This document shows positions 8,399 through 14,402 of a DNA stretch of 32,229 nucleotides, in pieces. This DNA is from a virus (Duplodnaviria > Heunggongvirae > Uroviricota > Caudoviricetes): IMG/VR virus record IMGVR_UViG_2529292920_000016. One strand, 5' to 3'. The position numbers and the translations under genes are program-made. Numbering within the stretch: position 1 is the first letter of the stretch; each line of letters opens with the position of its first letter. The notes under the pieces are model-generated. The model saw only the letters and a program-made list of their open reading frames with translations. It was not told the DNA's origin and searched no databases.

Positions 8399-8673
8399 AT
8401 GGAGACTGTTTTTGACGCACTGAAAGCAATGGGAAAAGCCACATCCATAGAACTTGCTGCGCGCGTGAAGAAGTGCTGAACGAACTATGGGAACTGAAAA
8501 AGGCTGGTTTTGTTGATAAAAGCGCGTACACCTGGCGTGTGGCTGATAACAACGTTCAGCAGGAACAGCCAGCGCAGGCAGAACTGCCGGAAGAAACCAC
8601 CACAATGAGTGAAGTTATGCAGCGCATACTGGCATTTTATCAGGGAAATGTTCGATATTTTAGACGTTACTAG
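8399..8673 (+). pseudogene. DUF1627-like winged-helix gene split by a frameshift
   Basis: GGAGG RBS, then ATG 8399 gives [26 protein letters not shown] (stop at 8477). It continues in another frame as [19 protein letters not shown]... to 8673. One missing base near 8465 would join the two pieces. Confidence 0.55.
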
Positions 8674-9045
8674 ATTAAAGAGCATTAGTTCAGATGTGAA
8701 TTGACATTGTGTGGCACAGGGTTGGGCTAGCGTGGGGGTTTGCTTTGTGTAAGAAACGGATGCTCTGCAAATTACTACTAATGCTTAATGTTAGTCTGAT
8801 CTGCTCCCCGATGATTAATACACCGCTATGTTAGTAATGTCTGTAGATCGCTGTGTGTTGCATCCATCGGTTGACCCCACAGTCCAAACCAGACTGTCAG
8901 CTTTGATTCGATTCTATCTACTCAACCTGTCAGGTAATGTCTGAGCTAATACACAGAGTACGGCTATCGCGAACTTTAAGCTAGGTATCTGATACGCACC
9001 GTTCACTTGGTCGTACTTCTTGCACTGACTAGCTATCGTGCGCAG

Positions 9046-9094
9046 TTATTTATAGGTAATCTCCAGTGTATAATTTTCCAACTTATGGGAGATT
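9046..9094 (+). promoter_or_regulatory. Promoter with flanking inverted repeat for the 280-aa gene
   Basis: TATAAT at 9069-9074 is directly preceded by TG. There is a weak -35, TTATTT, at 9046-9051. Inverted repeat AATCTCC (9058-9064) / GGAGATT (9088-9094) brackets the -10 and start site. Confidence 0.55.
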
Positions 9095-9112
9095 GTAAAA
9101 CAGGAGGAATAT

Positions 9113-9955
9113 ATGAGGAAAAAATCGTTTGGACGTTGCCCGTTTGATTTCGACGAAGATGTAAAAAAAATAGCCGCGATAAATAAATATATCCATGCGA
9201 AATTTGAGAGGCATAAAAATAAAATAGATAACCTAAAGGGGGTGGAACAAAAATTGATGGTTTTACATTACTTTAATGTACTGAATGAACTTAGTAATCA
9301 GGCTATATTTTCTTTGAGTACCGGAGCCTTTTCAGCATCGGAAGTATTAACTAGAGTTATAATGGAACAGGCTGCCAATCAATTTTATATAGCAATTGAT
9401 GATGGAAAAAATGCACAAGCATTACTCAAGGGTAGTAAGAAATTAGTTCATAGTAATGGGAAACGGTGGCTGGAGTGTTTAAAATCCAAAGAAATGACTA
9501 ATCCAGCAGCAGATGAAAGGATTCGTATCGGAAAAGAGCTAACTGATATGTTTAATAGATTGTGGCCAAATACACCTGAATATCCTGGAACCAAAAAGCT
9601 TTTCGAAGTAATTGGCTGGGAAACACACTATCATGCCTATTACGTCCCTCTTTGTGATTCAATACATACATTCTCTGATGATATGGCAAATATAGTATCT
9701 CTATATAATGCAATCCAAAGCGATAAAACTACTGCTATCGAACTCACTCTTGCAGTTAAACAAGAAAATAAACGGCTGGCAATTTATAATGTCGTAATTG
9801 CTATTGGCCTGCGGTGTGAGGCCTTAGTAAATGTATTTAACTCTTTAGGTTATCGAGATATTATAACTGAAATGGCGCCAACAATAGATGCAGTCAACCA
9901 GATTATAATTCGATATGATGATTTCGAACATTCCAGAATTTTTTATTGTCAATAA
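9113..9955 (+). CDS. Orphan 280-aa helical protein of unknown function (cargo gene)
   Basis: AGGAGG RBS at 9102-9107. Long uninterrupted ORF, visibly AT-rich relative to the backbone. I recognise no TM segment and no nucleotide-binding or nuclease motif. Confidence 0.8.
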   Translation: MRKKSFGRCPFDFDEDVKKIAAINKYIHAKFERHKNKIDNLKGVEQKLMVLHYFNVLNELSNQAIFSLSTGAFSASEVLTRVIMEQAANQFYIAIDDGKNAQALLKGSKKLVHSNGKRWLECLKSKEMTNPAADERIRIGKELTDMFNRLWPNTPEYPGTKKLFEVIGWETHYHAYYVPLCDSIHTFSDDMANIVSLYNAIQSDKTTAIELTLAVKQENKRLAIYNVVIAIGLRCEALVNVFNSLGYRDIITEMAPTIDAVNQIIIRYDDFEHSRIFYCQ

Positions 9956-10060
9956 TTAATTGGCAGAATTCGTACATGCACAACAACTAGTTATAGTTGA
10001 CCTATTTCGCTCTTGAGAGACAACCATACTCAAATCTTCCACATTGCAGGAGATTTGAGT

Positions 10061-10581
10061 ATGAATACGTCACCGAGGAACAAAGACAGTATCATAGGCC
10101 CAAAAAGACCACTTCAGATATCTCATATCTGGGGGCTCCAAATCCGGCTTGAACTGGAAGGTAAAACGCGTGATTTAGCTCGGTTTCAAGCAGAGCTACG
10201 GTGCTGCAACTGAAAAACTGGCAGTCCTATCCAATTTGAGATAACCAAAGGGACAAGAGAAGCTGTTTCTGCATTGATAAAGCTTGGCAATTTACGCAGT
10301 AAAGACTACTTGTTCCGATCTCGGGTCGGTACTAACCAACACATATCAATCCTGCAATATAACCGAATCTTTCATAGGGGGGAGAAAAGCTTGGTCTCGA
10401 AGATTCGCTTTACAGCACACATTCCATGAGAAGAACAAAACCTTGCCTTGTCTGCAAGAAAACTAAGAATCTCCGGGTGATCCAACTTCCGTTGGGCCAT
10501 AAGAAAACGGAAAGCACAGTTCGTTATCTGGGTATAGAAGTTGATGATGCATTAGAGATCTCTGAATCGATCGAAGTCTAA
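10061..10581 (+). pseudogene. Degraded short tyrosine recombinase
   Basis: GGAG RBS, then MNTSPRNKDSIIGPKRPL.... In-frame TGA at 10211 next to an apparent internal deletion. Frameshift in the G6 run at 10377-10382. The tail reads THSMRRTK...LGHKKTESTVRYLGIEVDDALEISESIEV*. Confidence 0.7.
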
Positions 10582-10993
10582 AGCTGTCAGGGCTGCAGCA
10601 GCAGCCCTGTGCCAAGAGCGTACCAATATATGTCTCAAAAAATTGGGCACAGGTCAATATCAATACCAACAACTCTGATTGTGCTCATGTGATTTACTCC
10701 TGTAGAAAACGCAGACAGTAAAAATATTTCACTGGCTGCTTCAGACAGGGCGTCCATCATATCATTACATAACAATAGCGGGGCACGATATCTAGACATG
10801 CAGCAACGATGGACATAGAATGAGTACAATCAAAAGCATGTTTAACTACTTTAATTTAAAAATCTTAGAATCTTAGGTGTAGAGTTCAATACTTAGTTAC
10901 ATACCCTTTTGAAAGCATCACAAATCATAACTATGAGCCTGTTAAAGGCATAGGTATTCTTAATTAAGAGCATTTTAATGAGAGAAAAATAAA

Positions 10994-12367
10994 ATGAAAA
11001 GACTATATTATACCCATCATGATAGTCGAACCTTAAAACTTGCTATAGAAGGTGATGTTTCTGATAATGCGAATATTTTTACAGTAATTGTAGGTAAAAA
11101 TGGCGTTGGAAAAAGCAGATTGTTATCTCAGATTGCTAAAGACTGTATTCAAGATATTCATTTCTTGAAAACTTTTAATCCATTATTTGACAGAGAAATA
11201 ACACCAAAGTTAATTGCCGTATCTACCAGCCCATTCGATAAATTCCCTCCAGGGCGTAGGTCATTAAATCACCAAAGGAAAGAAAATAATTATCGCTATG
11301 TGGGTATGCGTGGAGAAGGCCCCTTCGGCGTATCAAATGCCGTATCCCTTTTATCTTCAGCAGCGAGAGGTTGGCTAGAGAAACTTGCTTATTCAGAAAA
11401 TCCTGCAAATTTACTCGATGTTTTTCATTCTATTGATTTTGAGCCCCATATAGAGTTTGTATTTAAACCAACTTACAACGGACCGGACACTCCTGACTAT
11501 AACTTCATTGGTGTATATTCAGATGAGATATTAACGGAAGTTAAGGAGTTATATTTAAAATACAATATAAAAATTGACAGGAAGAATATTGAGAGTCTCT
11601 TAAAGTTAAACTCCGAATCACGTCATGATATTTACGAAGCACTGGTTGAAATTAATCGATTTGAACCTGAACGTAGGGCTGTAACCTTGTCAGTCGATTT
11701 TACCAATGGTGAAACATTGGTTGGCTCGACTTATGCGAATAATTATTTTTCTAGATCAATTCTTAAACTTATGAACGCTGGCTTCATGAGATTGATGGAT
11801 ATGCGACTCATAAAAAAAAGCTATGGTCCCATGTCACTTAAACGTGCGAGCTCGGGAGAACAATGTTTATTAGTGATGTTGCTTGGAATTGCAGGGCATA
11901 TAACTGATGGTTCTATAATACTAATTGATGAACCGGAAATAAGCTTGCATCCTCGATGGCAGGAAGAGTTTATCATTATGTTAACAAAAGCATTTTTAAC
12001 TTACTCAGGTTGTCAATTCATAATTGCAACTCATTCACCACAAATAATATCCAATTTGCCGAATAAAGGTTGTTATATAACATCTTTGTCGAAAAGTTAT
12101 CTTTATAAAGCAAAATACTTTAGCAACCGGTCTGCAGACTATCAACTTGCGGAACTATTTGATGCCCCTGGCATTATGAATGAATACATTGCCAGATTAG
12201 CTTTCAATTTACTTTCAAAAGTTAAGACTGCTAAGTTAGTAACAGATGATAATTGGCGTGAATTAAAACAACTCCAGCTTCTCCTTGAAAACGTTAATAG
12301 TAATGACCCTATTAATGAACTCGTAAATTCCGTATCTCAGGTGTGTGAAATTTATGCCAAAAATTAA
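10994..12367 (+). CDS. ABC/SMC-type ATPase, Septu PtuA-like
   Basis: Walker A GKNGVGKS (aa 34-41), signature-like ASSGEQ, Walker B IILIDEPEISLH and ATHSPQ His-loop. There is a long helical insert between Walker A and the signature. AT-rich. Confidence 0.8.
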   Translation: MKRLYYTHHDSRTLKLAIEGDVSDNANIFTVIVGKNGVGKSRLLSQIAKDCIQDIHFLKTFNPLFDREITPKLIAVSTSPFDKFPPGRRSLNHQRKENNYRYVGMRGEGPFGVSNAVSLLSSAARGWLEKLAYSENPANLLDVFHSIDFEPHIEFVFKPTYNGPDTPDYNFIGVYSDEILTEVKELYLKYNIKIDRKNIESLLKLNSESRHDIYEALVEINRFEPERRAVTLSVDFTNGETLVGSTYANNYFSRSILKLMNAGFMRLMDMRLIKKSYGPMSLKRASSGEQCLLVMLLGIAGHITDGSIILIDEPEISLHPRWQEEFIIMLTKAFLTYSGCQFIIATHSPQIISNLPNKGCYITSLSKSYLYKAKYFSNRSADYQLAELFDAPGIMNEYIARLAFNLLSKVKTAKLVTDDNWRELKQLQLLLENVNSNDPINELVNSVSQVCEIYAKN

Positions 12368-12983
12368 AAATCCAATTAGATTCAGCGCAGAGTCATTAGA
12401 TATTATTGAGAAAAAATTGTCTTCTCCAGATTTTAAGCATACCAACTGGGGAGATGATGATTTGCAAGTTCTCCGTGCAGAAATTAGAAATCATTACAGA
12501 GAAGAACAAAAGCTAGAATGTGTATATTGTCATGAGCCTATTGGGGTAAGAGCTGCACAAGCTGCTCCTATAGAGCATATTGTGCCAAAATCTCAATATC
12601 TATGTTTTATTTTTGAACCTAAGAATCTATGTGTAGTATGTCCTGACTGCAATGAATTCAAAGGTAAAAATGAAGTGTTATTTGAACCCGTAATAAATGG
12701 GGGGCGGCGCAAAAACTATCCAACTGCATCTGCATCATTTCGCATCGTTCATCCACATATAGATGATTATGAGATGCATATTATAAAAGCAAATCGTGTT
12801 TATGTGGACAAAACACCTAAAGGGCACTATACCATTGGAATATGTAAACTAAATAGATTTTTTCATTATTTTGGGATGTGTGATGAATTTGTTAATGATG
12901 CAAAAATTGCTGAGGCAAATGAAAATTTTTTCAAAAAGGTAGTATTACTACTAATGAATTATTGGATGATGACATTCATTTGA
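12354..12983 (+). CDS. HNH endonuclease, Septu PtuB-like
   Basis: ATG 12354 (or GTG 12345) overlaps the ATPase stop. HNH motif: CVYCHEP...IEHIVPKS...NLCVVCPDCNEFKG. Confidence 0.8.
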   Translation: MPKIKNPIRFSAESLDIIEKKLSSPDFKHTNWGDDDLQVLRAEIRNHYREEQKLECVYCHEPIGVRAAQAAPIEHIVPKSQYLCFIFEPKNLCVVCPDCNEFKGKNEVLFEPVINGGRRKNYPTASASFRIVHPHIDDYEMHIIKANRVYVDKTPKGHYTIGICKLNRFFHYFGMCDEFVNDAKIAEANENFFKKVVLLLMNYWMMTFI

Positions 12984-13242: not shown

Positions 13243-14331
13243 TCATGCTAGACACATGTAGGTTAGCCTCTTACGTGCCGGAAGGCAAGGAGATGTATGG
13301 GTCCACCACATATTGCAATTTTTATTCTCTTTTAAAATATATTCCACGGGCGTCATTAGTGCGAGCGCCTTGTGGGGTCTTTTGCTGTTATACAGCACCA
13401 GATATTCCGCCAGCTTCTGGTTAAATAGCGCCAGATCTTCAAAGAGTAAAATCTCATTAAATTCAATAAACTGCTCTCTTAACGTCCGGTTAAAACGTTC
13501 ACAGATAGCGTTCATTTTTGGCGTGTAGGGATAGGTCCAGAGGTGTTTGATAGCGGCTTCCTGCAGCGTTTTGTCGAAGTTTCCCAGGAACTCTTTTCCG
13601 TTATCTGTGATTATCTGGCTGATACCGACCGGGAACAACCGGGCTGCGCGGCTGAAGAAGTGATTGACGATATCACTGTTGAGTGACGGCACAGCCAGCG
13701 CCAGCGCGTAATTGCTGCATTCGTCGATCATGGTGATGACATAGCGACGCAGTTCGCCCATTCTGAGCTCAATGGCGTCCATCCCAATGAGCTCACCTGT
13801 CTTTACCGGGCGGTAGTGCTTTGGCCTGCGGGGTTTGGCAGACCGCTTTTTGACAAGCAGTGCCTTCCCCCGCGATCCCAGACGCACAGGTATCATCCGC
13901 ATTTTATCATGTGCGGCAGCGATCATTCTGCCGATGGTGGAAACACTCGGACAGGCCAGATAGCGCTGTTCGCACCAGGGCTTCAGGCGAACAAAAATCT
14001 GCTCTTTACCGAGGTTCGGCAGCTCTGTCCTGAGGCGTCGAATCTCTTTCAGCACATCGGGATGCCAGTGTTTTTTTCGTCGCACCAGAGGTGCCTTACT
14101 GTGCGGGATTAGCCCCTCAGGTCCTTCCTTGTTCAGTAACTGACGCCACCAGTAAAGCGTGCGGCAGGACACGCCAAAGGCTTCAGAAGCTGCAGAAATA
14201 CCGTGTTTATCCCAGAAGTGCAGAGCCTTCATTCTCATTGTTGCTATATCAGCCATCACTGAAAGCCTCAACGCATAATCGGCCGTTTGGTAGTACTTAG
14301 GATAGCCAACCATCAGATGCTGCATTTGCAT
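13243..14331 (-). CDS. DDE (rve-type) transposase, IS481-like single-ORF architecture
   Basis: 362-aa ORF with an N-terminal HTH. DDE candidates are GMDAIE, ITDNGKEF and NAICERFNRTL. The family guess is from architecture only. Confidence 0.75.
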   Translation of the reverse strand: MQMQHLMVGYPKYYQTADYALRLSVMADIATMRMKALHFWDKHGISAASEAFGVSCRTLYWWRQLLNKEGPEGLIPHSKAPLVRRKKHWHPDVLKEIRRLRTELPNLGKEQIFVRLKPWCEQRYLACPSVSTIGRMIAAAHDKMRMIPVRLGSRGKALLVKKRSAKPRRPKHYRPVKTGELIGMDAIELRMGELRRYVITMIDECSNYALALAVPSLNSDIVNHFFSRAARLFPVGISQIITDNGKEFLGNFDKTLQEAAIKHLWTYPYTPKMNAICERFNRTLREQFIEFNEILLFEDLALFNQKLAEYLVLYNSKRPHKALALMTPVEYILKENKNCNMWWTHTSPCLPARKRLTYMCLA

Positions 14332-14387
14332 AGTGCAATCTCCCCTTACTTATCCGGAGGCAATTGCAATATCTCTGTGAACTTACA
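13257..14387 (-). mobile_element. Insertion sequence (boundaries approximate)
   Basis: Candidate terminal inverted repeats are TGTAGGTT at 13257 and the reverse complement of AACTTACA, ending at 14387. I found no clear target duplication, so the ends are uncertain. Confidence 0.5.
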
Positions 14388-14402
14388 CAGGAGAAGCAGG
14401 CT

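What the first reader, a model, noticed from the sequence alone, without database searches (positions are those of the whole stretch)
9046..9955. Orphan 280-aa AT-rich gene with its own promoter: candidate undescribed single-gene immunity factor
- **Autonomous expression:** the gene is visibly AT-rich against the backbone. It has TG-TATAAT plus AGGAGG signals of its own, independent of the phage early and late operons.
- **Possible regulation:** the -10 and start site are bracketed by a 7-bp inverted repeat (AATCTCC at 9058-9064, GGAGATT at 9088-9094). This suggests repressor control or a leader hairpin.
- **Location:** it sits between the replication genes and the nin region, a slot where lambdoid prophages commonly carry cargo that is expressed in the lysogen.
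- **No recognisable family:** I see no Walker, HNH, DDE, RT or TM features. The helix pattern GAFSASEVLTRVIMEQAANQFYI only loosely recalls AbiV/DUF5677-type helical Abi proteins, and that is from memory.
- **Context:** it is next to a Septu-like pair but separated from it by a dead integrase. It could be an independent system or a lost partner.
Basis: partly seen in the sequence, partly recalled or inferred. Interest (0 to 1): 0.8.

Follow-up and report, generated by a model that had tools for sequence, protein, structure and literature searches.

The report
Stand-alone DUF5677 gene on recombinase cassette
The 280-aa gene is real and conserved, belongs to the DUF5677 family (not family-less), and is the cargo of a small decayed recombinase-bearing mobile cassette whose sister cassettes carry proven anti-phage genes, so it is a good but untested candidate defence gene.

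Summary
The window is a lambdoid prophage of E. coli E2348/69. The ORF at 9113-9955 (280 aa, GC 0.35) is real and under purifying selection (dN/dS 0.20-0.36).

**Family.** It scores above threshold for Pfam DUF5677 and matches PHROG 4167 over its full length. A published table places a DUF5677 domain in DitA of the Aditi defence system. It also lists an E. coli DUF5677 protein as a predicted defence gene. Nobody has tested this one.

**Signals.** The RBS is good. The TATAAT is conserved, but there is no canonical extended -10 and the -35 is poor. The 7-bp inverted repeat is at chance level.

**The "dead integrase".** It is the gene's own partner: a ~700-bp module for a 200-aa tyrosine recombinase, present in 869 of 5426 E. 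coli genomes. Elsewhere it sits next to PD-T7-1, PD-T7-5, HEC-08 or HEPN genes. A sister element shows precise presence/absence at a short repeat.

**Verdict.** A likely single-gene defence cargo; the mechanism is unknown.

The parts
8738..8761 (+). Degenerate left attachment-site-like hairpin (GTTTGCTTTGTGTAAGAAACGGAT) in the prophage backbone, just left of the cassette.
   Evidence: 16 of 24 bases match the hairpin GTCCGCTTTGTGCCAAGAGCGGAC at the homologous position of L044. Only 7 of 5000 shuffles reach that. It is not found at 3 or fewer mismatches to the 15-nt core.
8796..10006 (+). Cargo segment: conserved upstream region, the DUF5677 gene and about 50 bp of 3' flank.
   Evidence: About 89-90% identical to S88 (P2-like prophage) and L011 (Buttiauxella). 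The left ends match. The right end coincides with the end of homology in L010, which lacks the recombinase.
9069..9074 (+). Candidate -10 hexamer TATAAT of the gene's own promoter.
   Evidence: A perfect hexamer inside a block that is invariant in four alleles. The -35 is poor, there is no canonical TGn, and the promoter scan does not call it. The transcription start is not mapped.
9102..9107 (+). Shine-Dalgarno sequence AGGAGG.
   Evidence: Lies 5 nt upstream of the ATG at 9113. One of six AGGAGG on the + strand of the window.
9113..9955 (+). DUF5677 protein gene (280 aa, WP_001227887.1).
   Evidence: ORF. Pfam PF18928 at 37.5 bits, above the 27.1 cut-off. phrog_4167. dN/dS 0.20-0.36. AlphaFold model pLDDT 94.9.
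10007..10620 (+). Recombinase module with the same ends in every context. It includes a 39-bp palindrome at its 5' end and a hairpin plus repeat motif at its 3' end.
   Evidence: About 90% identical to L043-L046 and L011, with homology starting and stopping at the same points.
10025..10063 (+). 13-13-13 palindrome (CATACTCAAATCT / AGATTTGAGTATG) that overlaps the recombinase start codon.
   Evidence: Arms are 100% complementary. Conserved in all recombinase modules examined.
10061..10581 (+). Pseudogene of a small (200 aa when intact) catalytic-domain-only tyrosine recombinase.
   Evidence: RefSeq notes it as frameshifted with an internal stop. 82-bp deletion and 1-bp indels relative to the intact S88 copy. 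The intact copy matches Pfam Phage_integrase at E 3.9e-17.
10609..10623 (+). Right copy of the repeat motif (GTGCCAAGAGCGTAC) at the fixed 3' end of the recombinase module.
   Evidence: One search reports 2 mismatches to GTGCCAGRAGCGGAC. One search reports 3 mismatches to GTGCCAGAAGCGGAC. The motif sits at the same offset (+631 from the recombinase ATG) in all intact modules.

Best explanation
The ORF is a stand-alone member of the DUF5677 family, carried as the cargo gene of a small recombinase-linked mobile cassette. That cassette landed in the variable slot after the replication genes of this lambdoid prophage, and its recombinase has since decayed.

The most likely role is a single-gene anti-phage (abortive-infection-type) factor. 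It would be expressed in the lysogen from the conserved upstream region that travels with it.

Inferred mechanism, not shown: the helical bundle carries a conserved polar pocket. One helix face contributes R81, E85 and N89. The kink between two core helices contributes D182, H185, D190 and N193. The fold weakly resembles HEPN domains, so the pocket would be a catalytic or ligand-binding site. On phage infection it would damage RNA or nucleotides and stop phage growth.

Shown here: family membership, purifying selection, mobility with its own upstream region, and the company it keeps. Inferred: expression in the lysogen, defence activity, and the chemistry.
For: **Family and constraint**
- Pfam DUF5677 above the gathering score.
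- An exhaustive profile search found 66 representatives. The full-length ones are about 260-350 aa. All 57 aligned members match DUF5677.
- R81 is invariant. E85, N89, H185, D190 and N193 are conserved in at least 53 of 57.
- dN/dS is 0.20-0.36 among four alleles.
- The gene stays intact where the recombinase is dead (19 genomes) or deleted (IHE3034, AST215).

**Autonomy**
- The gene plus at least 200 bp of upstream sequence is found in four settings: a lambdoid prophage, the P2 tail-gene hotspot, a locus in Buttiauxella beside a Tn3-family transposase, and a guaA-adjacent island without the recombinase.

**Neighbourhoods of homologues**
- Septu here.
- CBASS plus MobC; RhuM/PDC-S05; a RES toxin; a PLD nuclease.
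- Tn7-like cargo beside an MmeI-type restriction-modification enzyme; other lambdoid prophages at the same slot.

**Company of the same recombinase module**
- PD-T7-1 (E 7e-157), PD-T7-5 (E 8e-102) and HEC-08 (E 1e-173).
- DUF4145 and LA2681 HEPN proteins.

**Literature**
- DefensePredictor tables place DUF5677 in Aditi DitA (probability 99). They list the E. coli DUF5677 protein WP_235778200.1 as a predicted defence gene (log-odds 5.74).

**Fold**
- Model pLDDT 94.9.
Against: - There is no experimental test of this protein.
- The only published test of a DUF5677 ORF used a Bacillota gene in E. faecalis against six phages. It was not among the five positives of nine.
- No PADLOC or NCBIfam model matches this protein. 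None of its 57 relatives matches meaningfully either.
- The canonical HEPN Rx4-6H motif is absent. Only 4 of 57 members have R or K in the 7 residues before H185.
- Foldseek finds nothing.
- The family is mostly acidic (median pI 5.9), unlike the basic RNA-binding surface described for AbiV.
- The promoter is only a conserved -10.
- Three homologue contexts are plain chromosomal (L003, L014, L015).
- No formal enrichment statistic against a background was computed.
Confidence: 0.5

Rival explanations
1. The gene is mobile-element cargo with a non-defence role. It could be an addiction or toxin-like stabiliser of the element, or a host-fitness or stress factor. Its defence-island company would then reflect only the shared integration hotspots of mobile DNA.
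For: - It occurs on many kinds of mobile element and also in plain chromosomal settings.
- One neighbour is a RES toxin.
- A distant DUF5677 ORF showed no protection in the one published test.
- No known defence model matches.
Against: - No partner antitoxin gene or structured RNA is conserved next to it.
- The same recombinase module carries validated single-gene defence genes in the equivalent position.
- DefensePredictor scores an E. coli DUF5677 protein above its stringent cut-off.
Confidence: 0.2
2. The protein is a counter-defence or superinfection-control factor that serves the phage or mobile element itself. It might inhibit a host or rival immune system rather than act as an immune effector.
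For: - It sits in early or moron slots of temperate phages and next to defence systems.
- Anti-defence genes also cluster in such places (general knowledge).
- The protein is all-helical with no proven enzymatic motif.
Against: - It is equally found on Tn7-like and Tn3-type transposons and on an element with a MobC-family mobilisation protein.
- The invariant R, E, N, H and D cluster looks like an active or ligand site rather than a binding decoy.
- The domain is part of DitA, a component of a defence system.
Confidence: 0.1
3. The protein is an accessory factor of the small tyrosine recombinase, controlling directionality or site choice. It would be part of the mobility machinery, not cargo.
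For: - DUF5677 and the recombinase are adjacent in E. coli, in Buttiauxella and, at only 35% / 53% identity, in Pseudomonas fluorescens L016.
- DUF5677 was also found enriched next to serine recombinases in Bacillota.
Against: - The recombinase module is in 869 E. coli genomes, while DUF5677 is in only 57.
- The module sits beside unrelated genes elsewhere.
- DUF5677 is kept intact under purifying selection where the recombinase is dead or deleted.
- Most homologues have no recombinase nearby.
Confidence: 0.07
4. The gene is a decaying, functionless remnant of a dead cassette.
For: - The partner recombinase is a pseudogene and the left site is degenerate.
- An IS481 has inserted nearby.
Against: - The reading frame is intact in 57 complete genomes, in two alleles that are 8% apart.
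- dN/dS is 0.20-0.36 and the core motifs are invariant.
Confidence: 0.03

Closest known systems
Aditi defence system, DitA component (Millman et al. 2022)
   Same: - DitA carries a DUF5677 domain at residues 276-427 of its UniRef50 representative (HHblits probability 99; DefensePredictor Table S5).
- The window protein matches the same Pfam model above threshold.
- An E. coli DUF5677 protein aligns to DitA at probability 96.
- Neither protein has a known mechanism.
   Different: - The window protein is 280 aa and consists of little more than the domain plus flanking helices. DitA has about 275 further N-terminal residues.
- No DitB-like partner is adjacent.
- No PADLOC model of any kind matches.
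- HMMER with the family profile does not reach DitA-sized proteins.
AbiV and other HEPN-type abortive-infection proteins
   Same: - Both are small all-helical proteins with a four-helix core.
- HEPN families with non-canonical active sites are documented, including AbiV and AF0298-like proteins.
   Different: - There is no sequence match to AbiV or any HEPN model.
- There is no Rx4-6H motif. The invariant R and H lie 104 residues apart on different helices.
- No RNA antitoxin signal is seen.
- The family is mostly acidic.
Single-gene defence cargos PD-T7-1, PD-T7-5 and candidate HEC-08 next to the same small tyrosine recombinase
   Same: - They occupy the equivalent position beside the same ~700-bp recombinase module.
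- PD-T7-1 is in the very same slot of a related lambdoid prophage.
- All are single genes of unknown or poorly known mechanism.
   Different: - There is no sequence relationship to DUF5677.
- PD-T7-1 and HEC-08 are transcribed divergently from the recombinase, whereas DUF5677 is in tandem with it.
Serine-recombinase-associated defence loci (RADS; bioRxiv 2025.10.07.681051)
   Same: - A site-specific recombinase serves as a marker of variable defence cargo.
- DUF5677 was one of the domains enriched next to those recombinases.
   Different: - Here the recombinase is a 200-aa tyrosine type and the host is E. coli.
- The DUF5677 ORF tested there was not reported as protective.

Membership tests
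Pfam DUF5677 (PF18928) | Score above Pfam's gathering threshold. | tested here: met
   37.5 bits against a cut-off of 27.1, E 3.3e-9, residues 49-195. All 57 full-length homologues also match.
Pfam DUF5677 (PF18928) | The family's conserved polar residues are present. | tested here: met
   R81 in 57/57, E85 in 55/57, N89 in 55/57, H185 in 56/57, D190 in 54/57, N193 in 53/57. All are present in the window protein.
AbiV (HEPN-AbiV, type III toxin-antitoxin) | Sequence match to AbiV or HEPN family models. | tested here: not met
   No PADLOC or NCBIfam family at E <= 1. No HEPN family appears among the Pfam hits of 57 members or in PADLOC.
AbiV (HEPN-AbiV, type III toxin-antitoxin) | Rx4-6H catalytic motif. 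| tested here: not met
   There is no R or K in the 7 residues before the conserved H185 in the window protein, and only 4 of 57 members have one.
AbiV (HEPN-AbiV, type III toxin-antitoxin) | HEPN four-helix fold. | tested here: inconclusive
   [not shown]
AbiV (HEPN-AbiV, type III toxin-antitoxin) | Adjacent antitoxin RNA. | tested here: not met
   No Rfam match at E <= 1 in 8400-11100. Folding z-scores of the conserved upstream region are 0.18 and 0.34. No tandem repeats were seen.
Aditi (DitA + DitB) | DitA-type DUF5677 domain. | tested here: met
   The window protein matches PF18928. The presence of the domain in DitA is taken from DefensePredictor Table S5 and was not recomputed here.
Aditi (DitA + DitB) | Full DitA architecture (long N-terminal region plus C-terminal DUF5677). 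| tested here: not met
   The protein is 280 aa and the whole subfamily is 52-347 aa. DitA's domain starts at residue 276.
Aditi (DitA + DitB) | Adjacent DitB partner gene. | tested here: not met
   The neighbours are a DUF1627 remnant upstream and the recombinase pseudogene downstream. The close alleles have no conserved second gene other than the recombinase.
Septu (PtuA/PtuB) | Co-inherited component of the PtuAB operon. | tested here: not met
   It is separated from ptuA by about 1 kb, which includes the recombinase module. The 38 P2-type carriers, L010 and L011 have the gene without Septu.
Mini integrative cassette with the 200-aa tyrosine recombinase | Recombinase module with the family's fixed ends. 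| tested here: met
   Window 10007-10620 aligns end to end with the modules of L043-L046 and L011. The gene itself is inactivated.
Mini integrative cassette with the 200-aa tyrosine recombinase | Direct repeats of the GTGCCAGRAGCGGAC motif flanking cargo plus recombinase. | tested here: inconclusive
   The right copy lies at 10609-10623 with 2-3 mismatches. The left copy is only a degenerate hairpin at 8738-8761 (16 of 24; 7 of 5000 shuffles). Clean pairs are seen in L011, L043 and L044.
Mini integrative cassette with the 200-aa tyrosine recombinase | Precise presence/absence polymorphism at the repeat. | tested here: inconclusive
   It is shown for the sister HEC-08 element: 27 genomes have the exact empty site in one piece. 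It was not found for the L044 flanks. It was not tested for the DUF5677 element itself.

The most novel reading that the evidence does not exclude
The gene and its 'dead integrase' belong to an apparently undescribed family of 2-4 kb mini integrative cassettes. Each has a catalytic-domain-only 200-aa tyrosine recombinase with fixed module ends, plus one or a few cargo genes. Each is bounded by a short hairpin-forming repeat (GTCCGCT..GTGCCAGRAGCGGAC). These cassettes would shuttle single-gene defence cargos (PD-T7-1, PD-T7-5, HEC-08, HEPN proteins, DUF5677) between P2 tail-gene hotspots, lambdoid post-replication slots, integrative elements, plasmids and chromosomal islands. About 16% of E. 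coli genomes carry the module. Within that system, stand-alone DUF5677 would be a new HEPN-like effector class with a split active site, R from one helix and H from another.
Probability: 0.3. Interest if true: 0.7.

Novelty: new variant of a known kind. Interest (0 to 1): 0.45.

Why it matters
**If the gene protects against phages**
- A Pfam domain of unknown function would get its first stand-alone, genetically simple representative in E. coli.
- The domain is shared with DitA of the mechanistically opaque Aditi system, so this gene would be a tractable entry point to what the domain does.

**The more useful by-product**
- The small tyrosine-recombinase module has the same ends everywhere, and a short repeat flanks it.
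- One sister element is precisely present or absent among genomes.
- The module sits next to validated single-gene defences.
- If confirmed, it is a cheap genomic marker for finding further single-gene defence cargos. It would also help explain how such genes move between unrelated prophage hotspots.

As it stands, the gene is one of many predicted, untested defence candidates.

Tried and rejected
**Tested and rejected**
- **AbiV membership:** rejected. There is no model match and no Rx4-6H motif.
- **RNA antitoxin or structured leader in the conserved upstream region:** no Rfam hit and folding z-scores near 0.
- **Repressor or hairpin control through the 7-bp inverted repeat:** the repeat is at chance level and not conserved as a repeat.
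- **Invertible promoter or cassette (fim-like switch) driven by the small recombinase:** all 36 P2-type carriers are collinear in one piece. The E. coli cassette has no arm inside the recombinase gene. Only Pseudomonas L016 shows an inversion.
- **Septu accessory:** rejected by the Septu-free carriers.
- **11-nt terminal inverted repeat of the cassette (8894-8904 / 10580-10590):** by my own estimate, not a computed control, it is at chance level, so it was dropped.

**Searches that gave nothing**
- PDB sequence search with the family profile.
- Foldseek against PDB and against viral structures.
- A second word-indexed homologue search showed no domain fusions.
- Literature searches by accession numbers and for the recombinase cassettes.

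**Technical failures**
- The first AlphaFold run, with 4 sequences, was poor (pLDDT 56).
- The AlphaFold-database fold libraries were unavailable.
- The 57-sequence alignment was too divergent for locus scanning.
- The empty-site search for the L044 element found none.
Full report
**Where the window comes from**

Window 8600-10300 is 100% identical to E. coli O127:H6 E2348/69 (NC_011601.1, about 1.277 Mb). It lies in a lambdoid prophage integrated next to potC. The gene order there is:
- integrase, excisionase, exonuclease, dicB and ydfABC;
- repressor and cro;
- YdaT-like, DnaT-like and lambda-P-like replication proteins;
- a DUF1627 remnant;
- the ORF under study;
- a tyrosine-recombinase pseudogene;
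- an AAA ATPase plus an HNH endonuclease;
- an IS481 transposase;
- hokD, rem, DUF968, RusA and DUF1133.

**The observation**

The ORF at 9113-9955 encodes 280 aa. Its GC content is about 0.35, against 0.55-0.58 in the replication genes.

AGGAGG lies at 9102-9107, 5 nt before the ATG. It is one of six such hexamers on the + strand of the window.

TATAAT lies at 9069-9074. Several points weaken the promoter claim:
- It is preceded by GTG rather than the canonical TGn.
- The hexamer at 17-nt spacing is TTATTT (read).
- The promoter scanner does not call the site.
- Five of the window's six + strand TATAAT fall in this AT-rich kilobase.

What speaks for a real promoter is conservation. The block CTATTTATAGGTAATCT-N-CAGTGTATAAT is invariant in four alleles taken from four different genomic contexts.

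The 7-bp inverted repeat is present but uninformative. 9% of shuffled 72-nt regions and 42 of 447 tiles of the window contain one. It is 7 of 7 only in this allele.

**Family**

The protein is not family-less.
- It matches Pfam DUF5677 above the gathering score (37.5 bits against 27.1, residues 49-195).
- It matches PHROG 4167 over its full length (E 1e-176, function unknown).
- RefSeq names it 'DUF5677 domain-containing protein'.
- No PADLOC or NCBIfam model matches.

A profile search of 1.84 billion representatives found 66 relatives. Their lengths run from 52 to 347 aa, and the full-length ones are about 260-350 aa. All 57 that I aligned match DUF5677, and none matches a defence model meaningfully.

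The alignment shows two conserved motifs:
- (S/T)R81-x3-E85-x3-N89 on one helix.
- D182-S-x-H185-x3-(E/D)-D190-x2-N193.

R81 is invariant and H185 is present in 56 of 57. Four close alleles give dN/dS of 0.20-0.36. This is a functional protein under constraint.

**Structure**

With the 57-sequence alignment, AlphaFold gives a confident all-helical model (pLDDT 94.9, pTM 0.91, ten helices). H185 sits at the kink between helices 170-186 and 188-203.

Evidence against a HEPN reading:
- There is no Rx4-6H motif.
- The family is mostly acidic (median pI 5.9).
- Foldseek finds nothing.
- A PDB sequence search finds nothing.

I therefore treat 'HEPN-like active site split between two helices' as an inference with perhaps one chance in four. 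A metal-dependent hydrolase pocket is an equally open possibility, given the many conserved acidic residues.

**Literature**

Only two searchable papers mention DUF5677 in their text.
- In one, DUF5677 was enriched next to serine recombinases in Bacillota. One such ORF was tested in E. faecalis and is not among the five of nine reported as protective.
- DefensePredictor Table S5 assigns DUF5677 to residues 276-427 of Aditi DitA, at probability 99.
- DefensePredictor Table S10 lists an E. coli 219-aa 'DUF5677 domain-containing protein' (WP_235778200.1). It is called a predicted novel defence gene, with log-odds 5.74 against a cut-off of 4 and a remote DitA hit at probability 96.
- A 219-aa partial E. 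coli protein is in the same 90% cluster as a fragment 100% identical to the window protein. I could not verify that it is that accession.
- Aditi is a validated two-gene system with no known mechanism.

**Distribution and contexts**

The gene is in 57 of 5426 complete E. coli genomes, in two alleles.
- 19 genomes carry the 99%-or-higher allele. It sits in lambdoid prophages, in the sampled cases with the recombinase pseudogene and Septu.
- 38 genomes carry the roughly 92% allele. In all sampled cases it sits in P2-like prophages between the tail-fibre assembly and tail-sheath genes. A 2026 paper describes a defence hotspot within the P2 tail genes.
- Two P2 carriers have lost the recombinase but keep the gene.

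Close alleles also occur in two other places:
- In a Buttiauxella genome near a Tn3-family transposase and resolvase (identified from their N-terminal sequences, not scanned), with an intact recombinase (L011).
- Next to guaA and a PLD nuclease, without any recombinase (L010).

More distant homologues lie in these settings:
- beside CBASS and a MobC-family protein;
- beside RhuM/PDC-S05 and an IS3 element;
- beside a RES toxin;
- as Tn7-like cargo beside an MmeI-type restriction-modification enzyme;
- in other lambdoid prophages just after the early or replication genes;
- in three cases, in ordinary chromosomal surroundings.

No background enrichment statistic was computed.

**The 'dead integrase' is the gene's own partner**

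Three contexts share one segment: the window, S88 and L011. In window coordinates it runs from 8796 to 10545-10609.

Its right part (10007-10620) is a discrete recombinase module. The intact gene encodes a 200-aa catalytic-domain-only tyrosine recombinase (Pfam Phage_integrase E 3.9e-17). Blastn finds the module in 869 of 5426 E. coli genomes. In every context examined, homology starts at the same TCGCTC and ends at the same hairpin plus GTGCCAGRAGCGGAC motif. The window copy has an 82-bp deletion and frameshifts.

The genes beside the module differ between genomes:
- PD-T7-1 (E 7e-157), in the same lambdoid slot as here;
- HEC-08 (E 1e-173);
- PD-T7-5 (E 8e-102);
- a DUF4145 protein — DUF4145 is a HEPN family by my own knowledge;
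- an LA2681-family HEPN protein;
- a CBS-domain protein;
- unknown genes.

Direct copies of the motif flank cargo plus recombinase in L011, L043 and L044.

For the HEC-08 element I built a query from the left flank, one motif copy and the right flank. It matches 27 genomes contiguously, the best at 99.7% identity. So the 2186-bp element is precisely present or absent at the repeat. The window keeps the right motif copy (10609-10623) and only a degenerate left hairpin (8738-8761).

L010 carries the cargo alone, and its homology stops at window 10001, at the edge of the recombinase module.

This places the DUF5677 gene in a cargo position that validated single-gene defences occupy in sister elements. 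It also shows the gene does not need the recombinase.

**Interpretation**

- Best explanation (0.5): a stand-alone DUF5677 effector, carried as the defence cargo of a now-decayed mini cassette and expressed from its own conserved upstream region. The chemistry is unknown; HEPN-like is a lead.
- Rivals: non-defence mobile-element cargo or addiction function (0.2); counter-defence (0.1); recombinase accessory (0.07); functionless remnant (0.03).
- It is not an AbiV, Aditi or Septu member by the tests listed in the membership table.
- Novelty: a new variant of a known kind. The domain is catalogued and occurs in Aditi DitA, and an E. coli family member has been predicted, but not tested, as defensive.
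- The recombinase-cassette family is the more surprising finding. I did not find it in the searchable literature.

Noticed in passing
window 10007-10620; L043-L051 4947-5648; L011 10896-11580: A ~700-bp module encodes a 200-aa tyrosine recombinase and has identical ends in every context. It is present in 869 of 5426 complete E. coli genomes. It sits next to variable cargo: PD-T7-1, PD-T7-5, HEC-08, DUF4145, an LA2681 HEPN protein, a CBS-domain protein and DUF5677. Direct repeats of GTGCCAGRAGCGGAC flank cargo plus recombinase. For the HEC-08 element, 27 genomes show the exact empty site.
   Followed up: partly
L016 8573-8613 and 11602-11642 (Pseudomonas fluorescens EK007-RG4): A 41-nt inverted repeat (83% complementary) lies inside the recombinase coding region and 3 kb away, bracketing the DUF5677 gene. 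Undoing the inversion in silico restores a full recombinase ORF with the catalytic LLLGHTKLESTVRYLG end. In the sequenced state the recombinase lacks its catalytic tyrosine.
   Followed up: partly
window 10025-10063: A perfect 13-bp inverted repeat with a 13-nt spacer overlaps the Shine-Dalgarno sequence and start codon of the recombinase. It is conserved in all modules examined. It could be a translational hairpin, an operator or part of the recombination site.
   Followed up: partly
L011 7773, 8514, 9650, 12300 (Buttiauxella MAG): Four same-strand copies of the GTGCCAGRAGCGGAC motif divide the region into successive one- to three-gene units. One of them is DUF5677 plus recombinase. The region lies next to a Tn3-family transposase and resolvase and looks like an array of cassettes.
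   Followed up: no
window 9026-9060 and 10764-10798: A 35-nt inverted repeat (77% complementary) brackets the DUF5677 promoter region and the region upstream of ptuA. The left arm coincides with a patch of substitutions specific to the E2348 allele. The right arm overlaps the -35 of the best promoter-like site upstream of ptuA (10793-10821).
   Followed up: no
L002 6969-7001 and 9386-9418; L009 3040-3064: The P2 tail-gene hotspot is bounded on the left by the same hairpin motif (GTCCGCTCTGTGCCAGAAGCGGA) that ends the recombinase modules. An inverted partial copy lies on the right. This suggests the P2 hotspot edge is a target site for these cassettes.
   Followed up: partly
window 13243-14331 (about 13294-14388 by alignment): An IS481-family transposase is inserted between the Septu pair and hokD. 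The related prophage in L044 is collinear across this point without it.
   Followed up: partly
window 10994-12983: There is a complete Septu pair (PtuA 457 aa, PtuB 212 aa, overlapping by 23 nt) with very strong PADLOC matches. It lies to the right of the recombinase module's end. In L044 an unrelated 326-aa hypothetical gene occupies that place.
   Followed up: partly
[not shown]
   Followed up: no
window 8399-8601: A remnant of a DUF1627 gene, frameshifted and truncated, lies between the lambda-P-like gene and the cassette.
   Followed up: no
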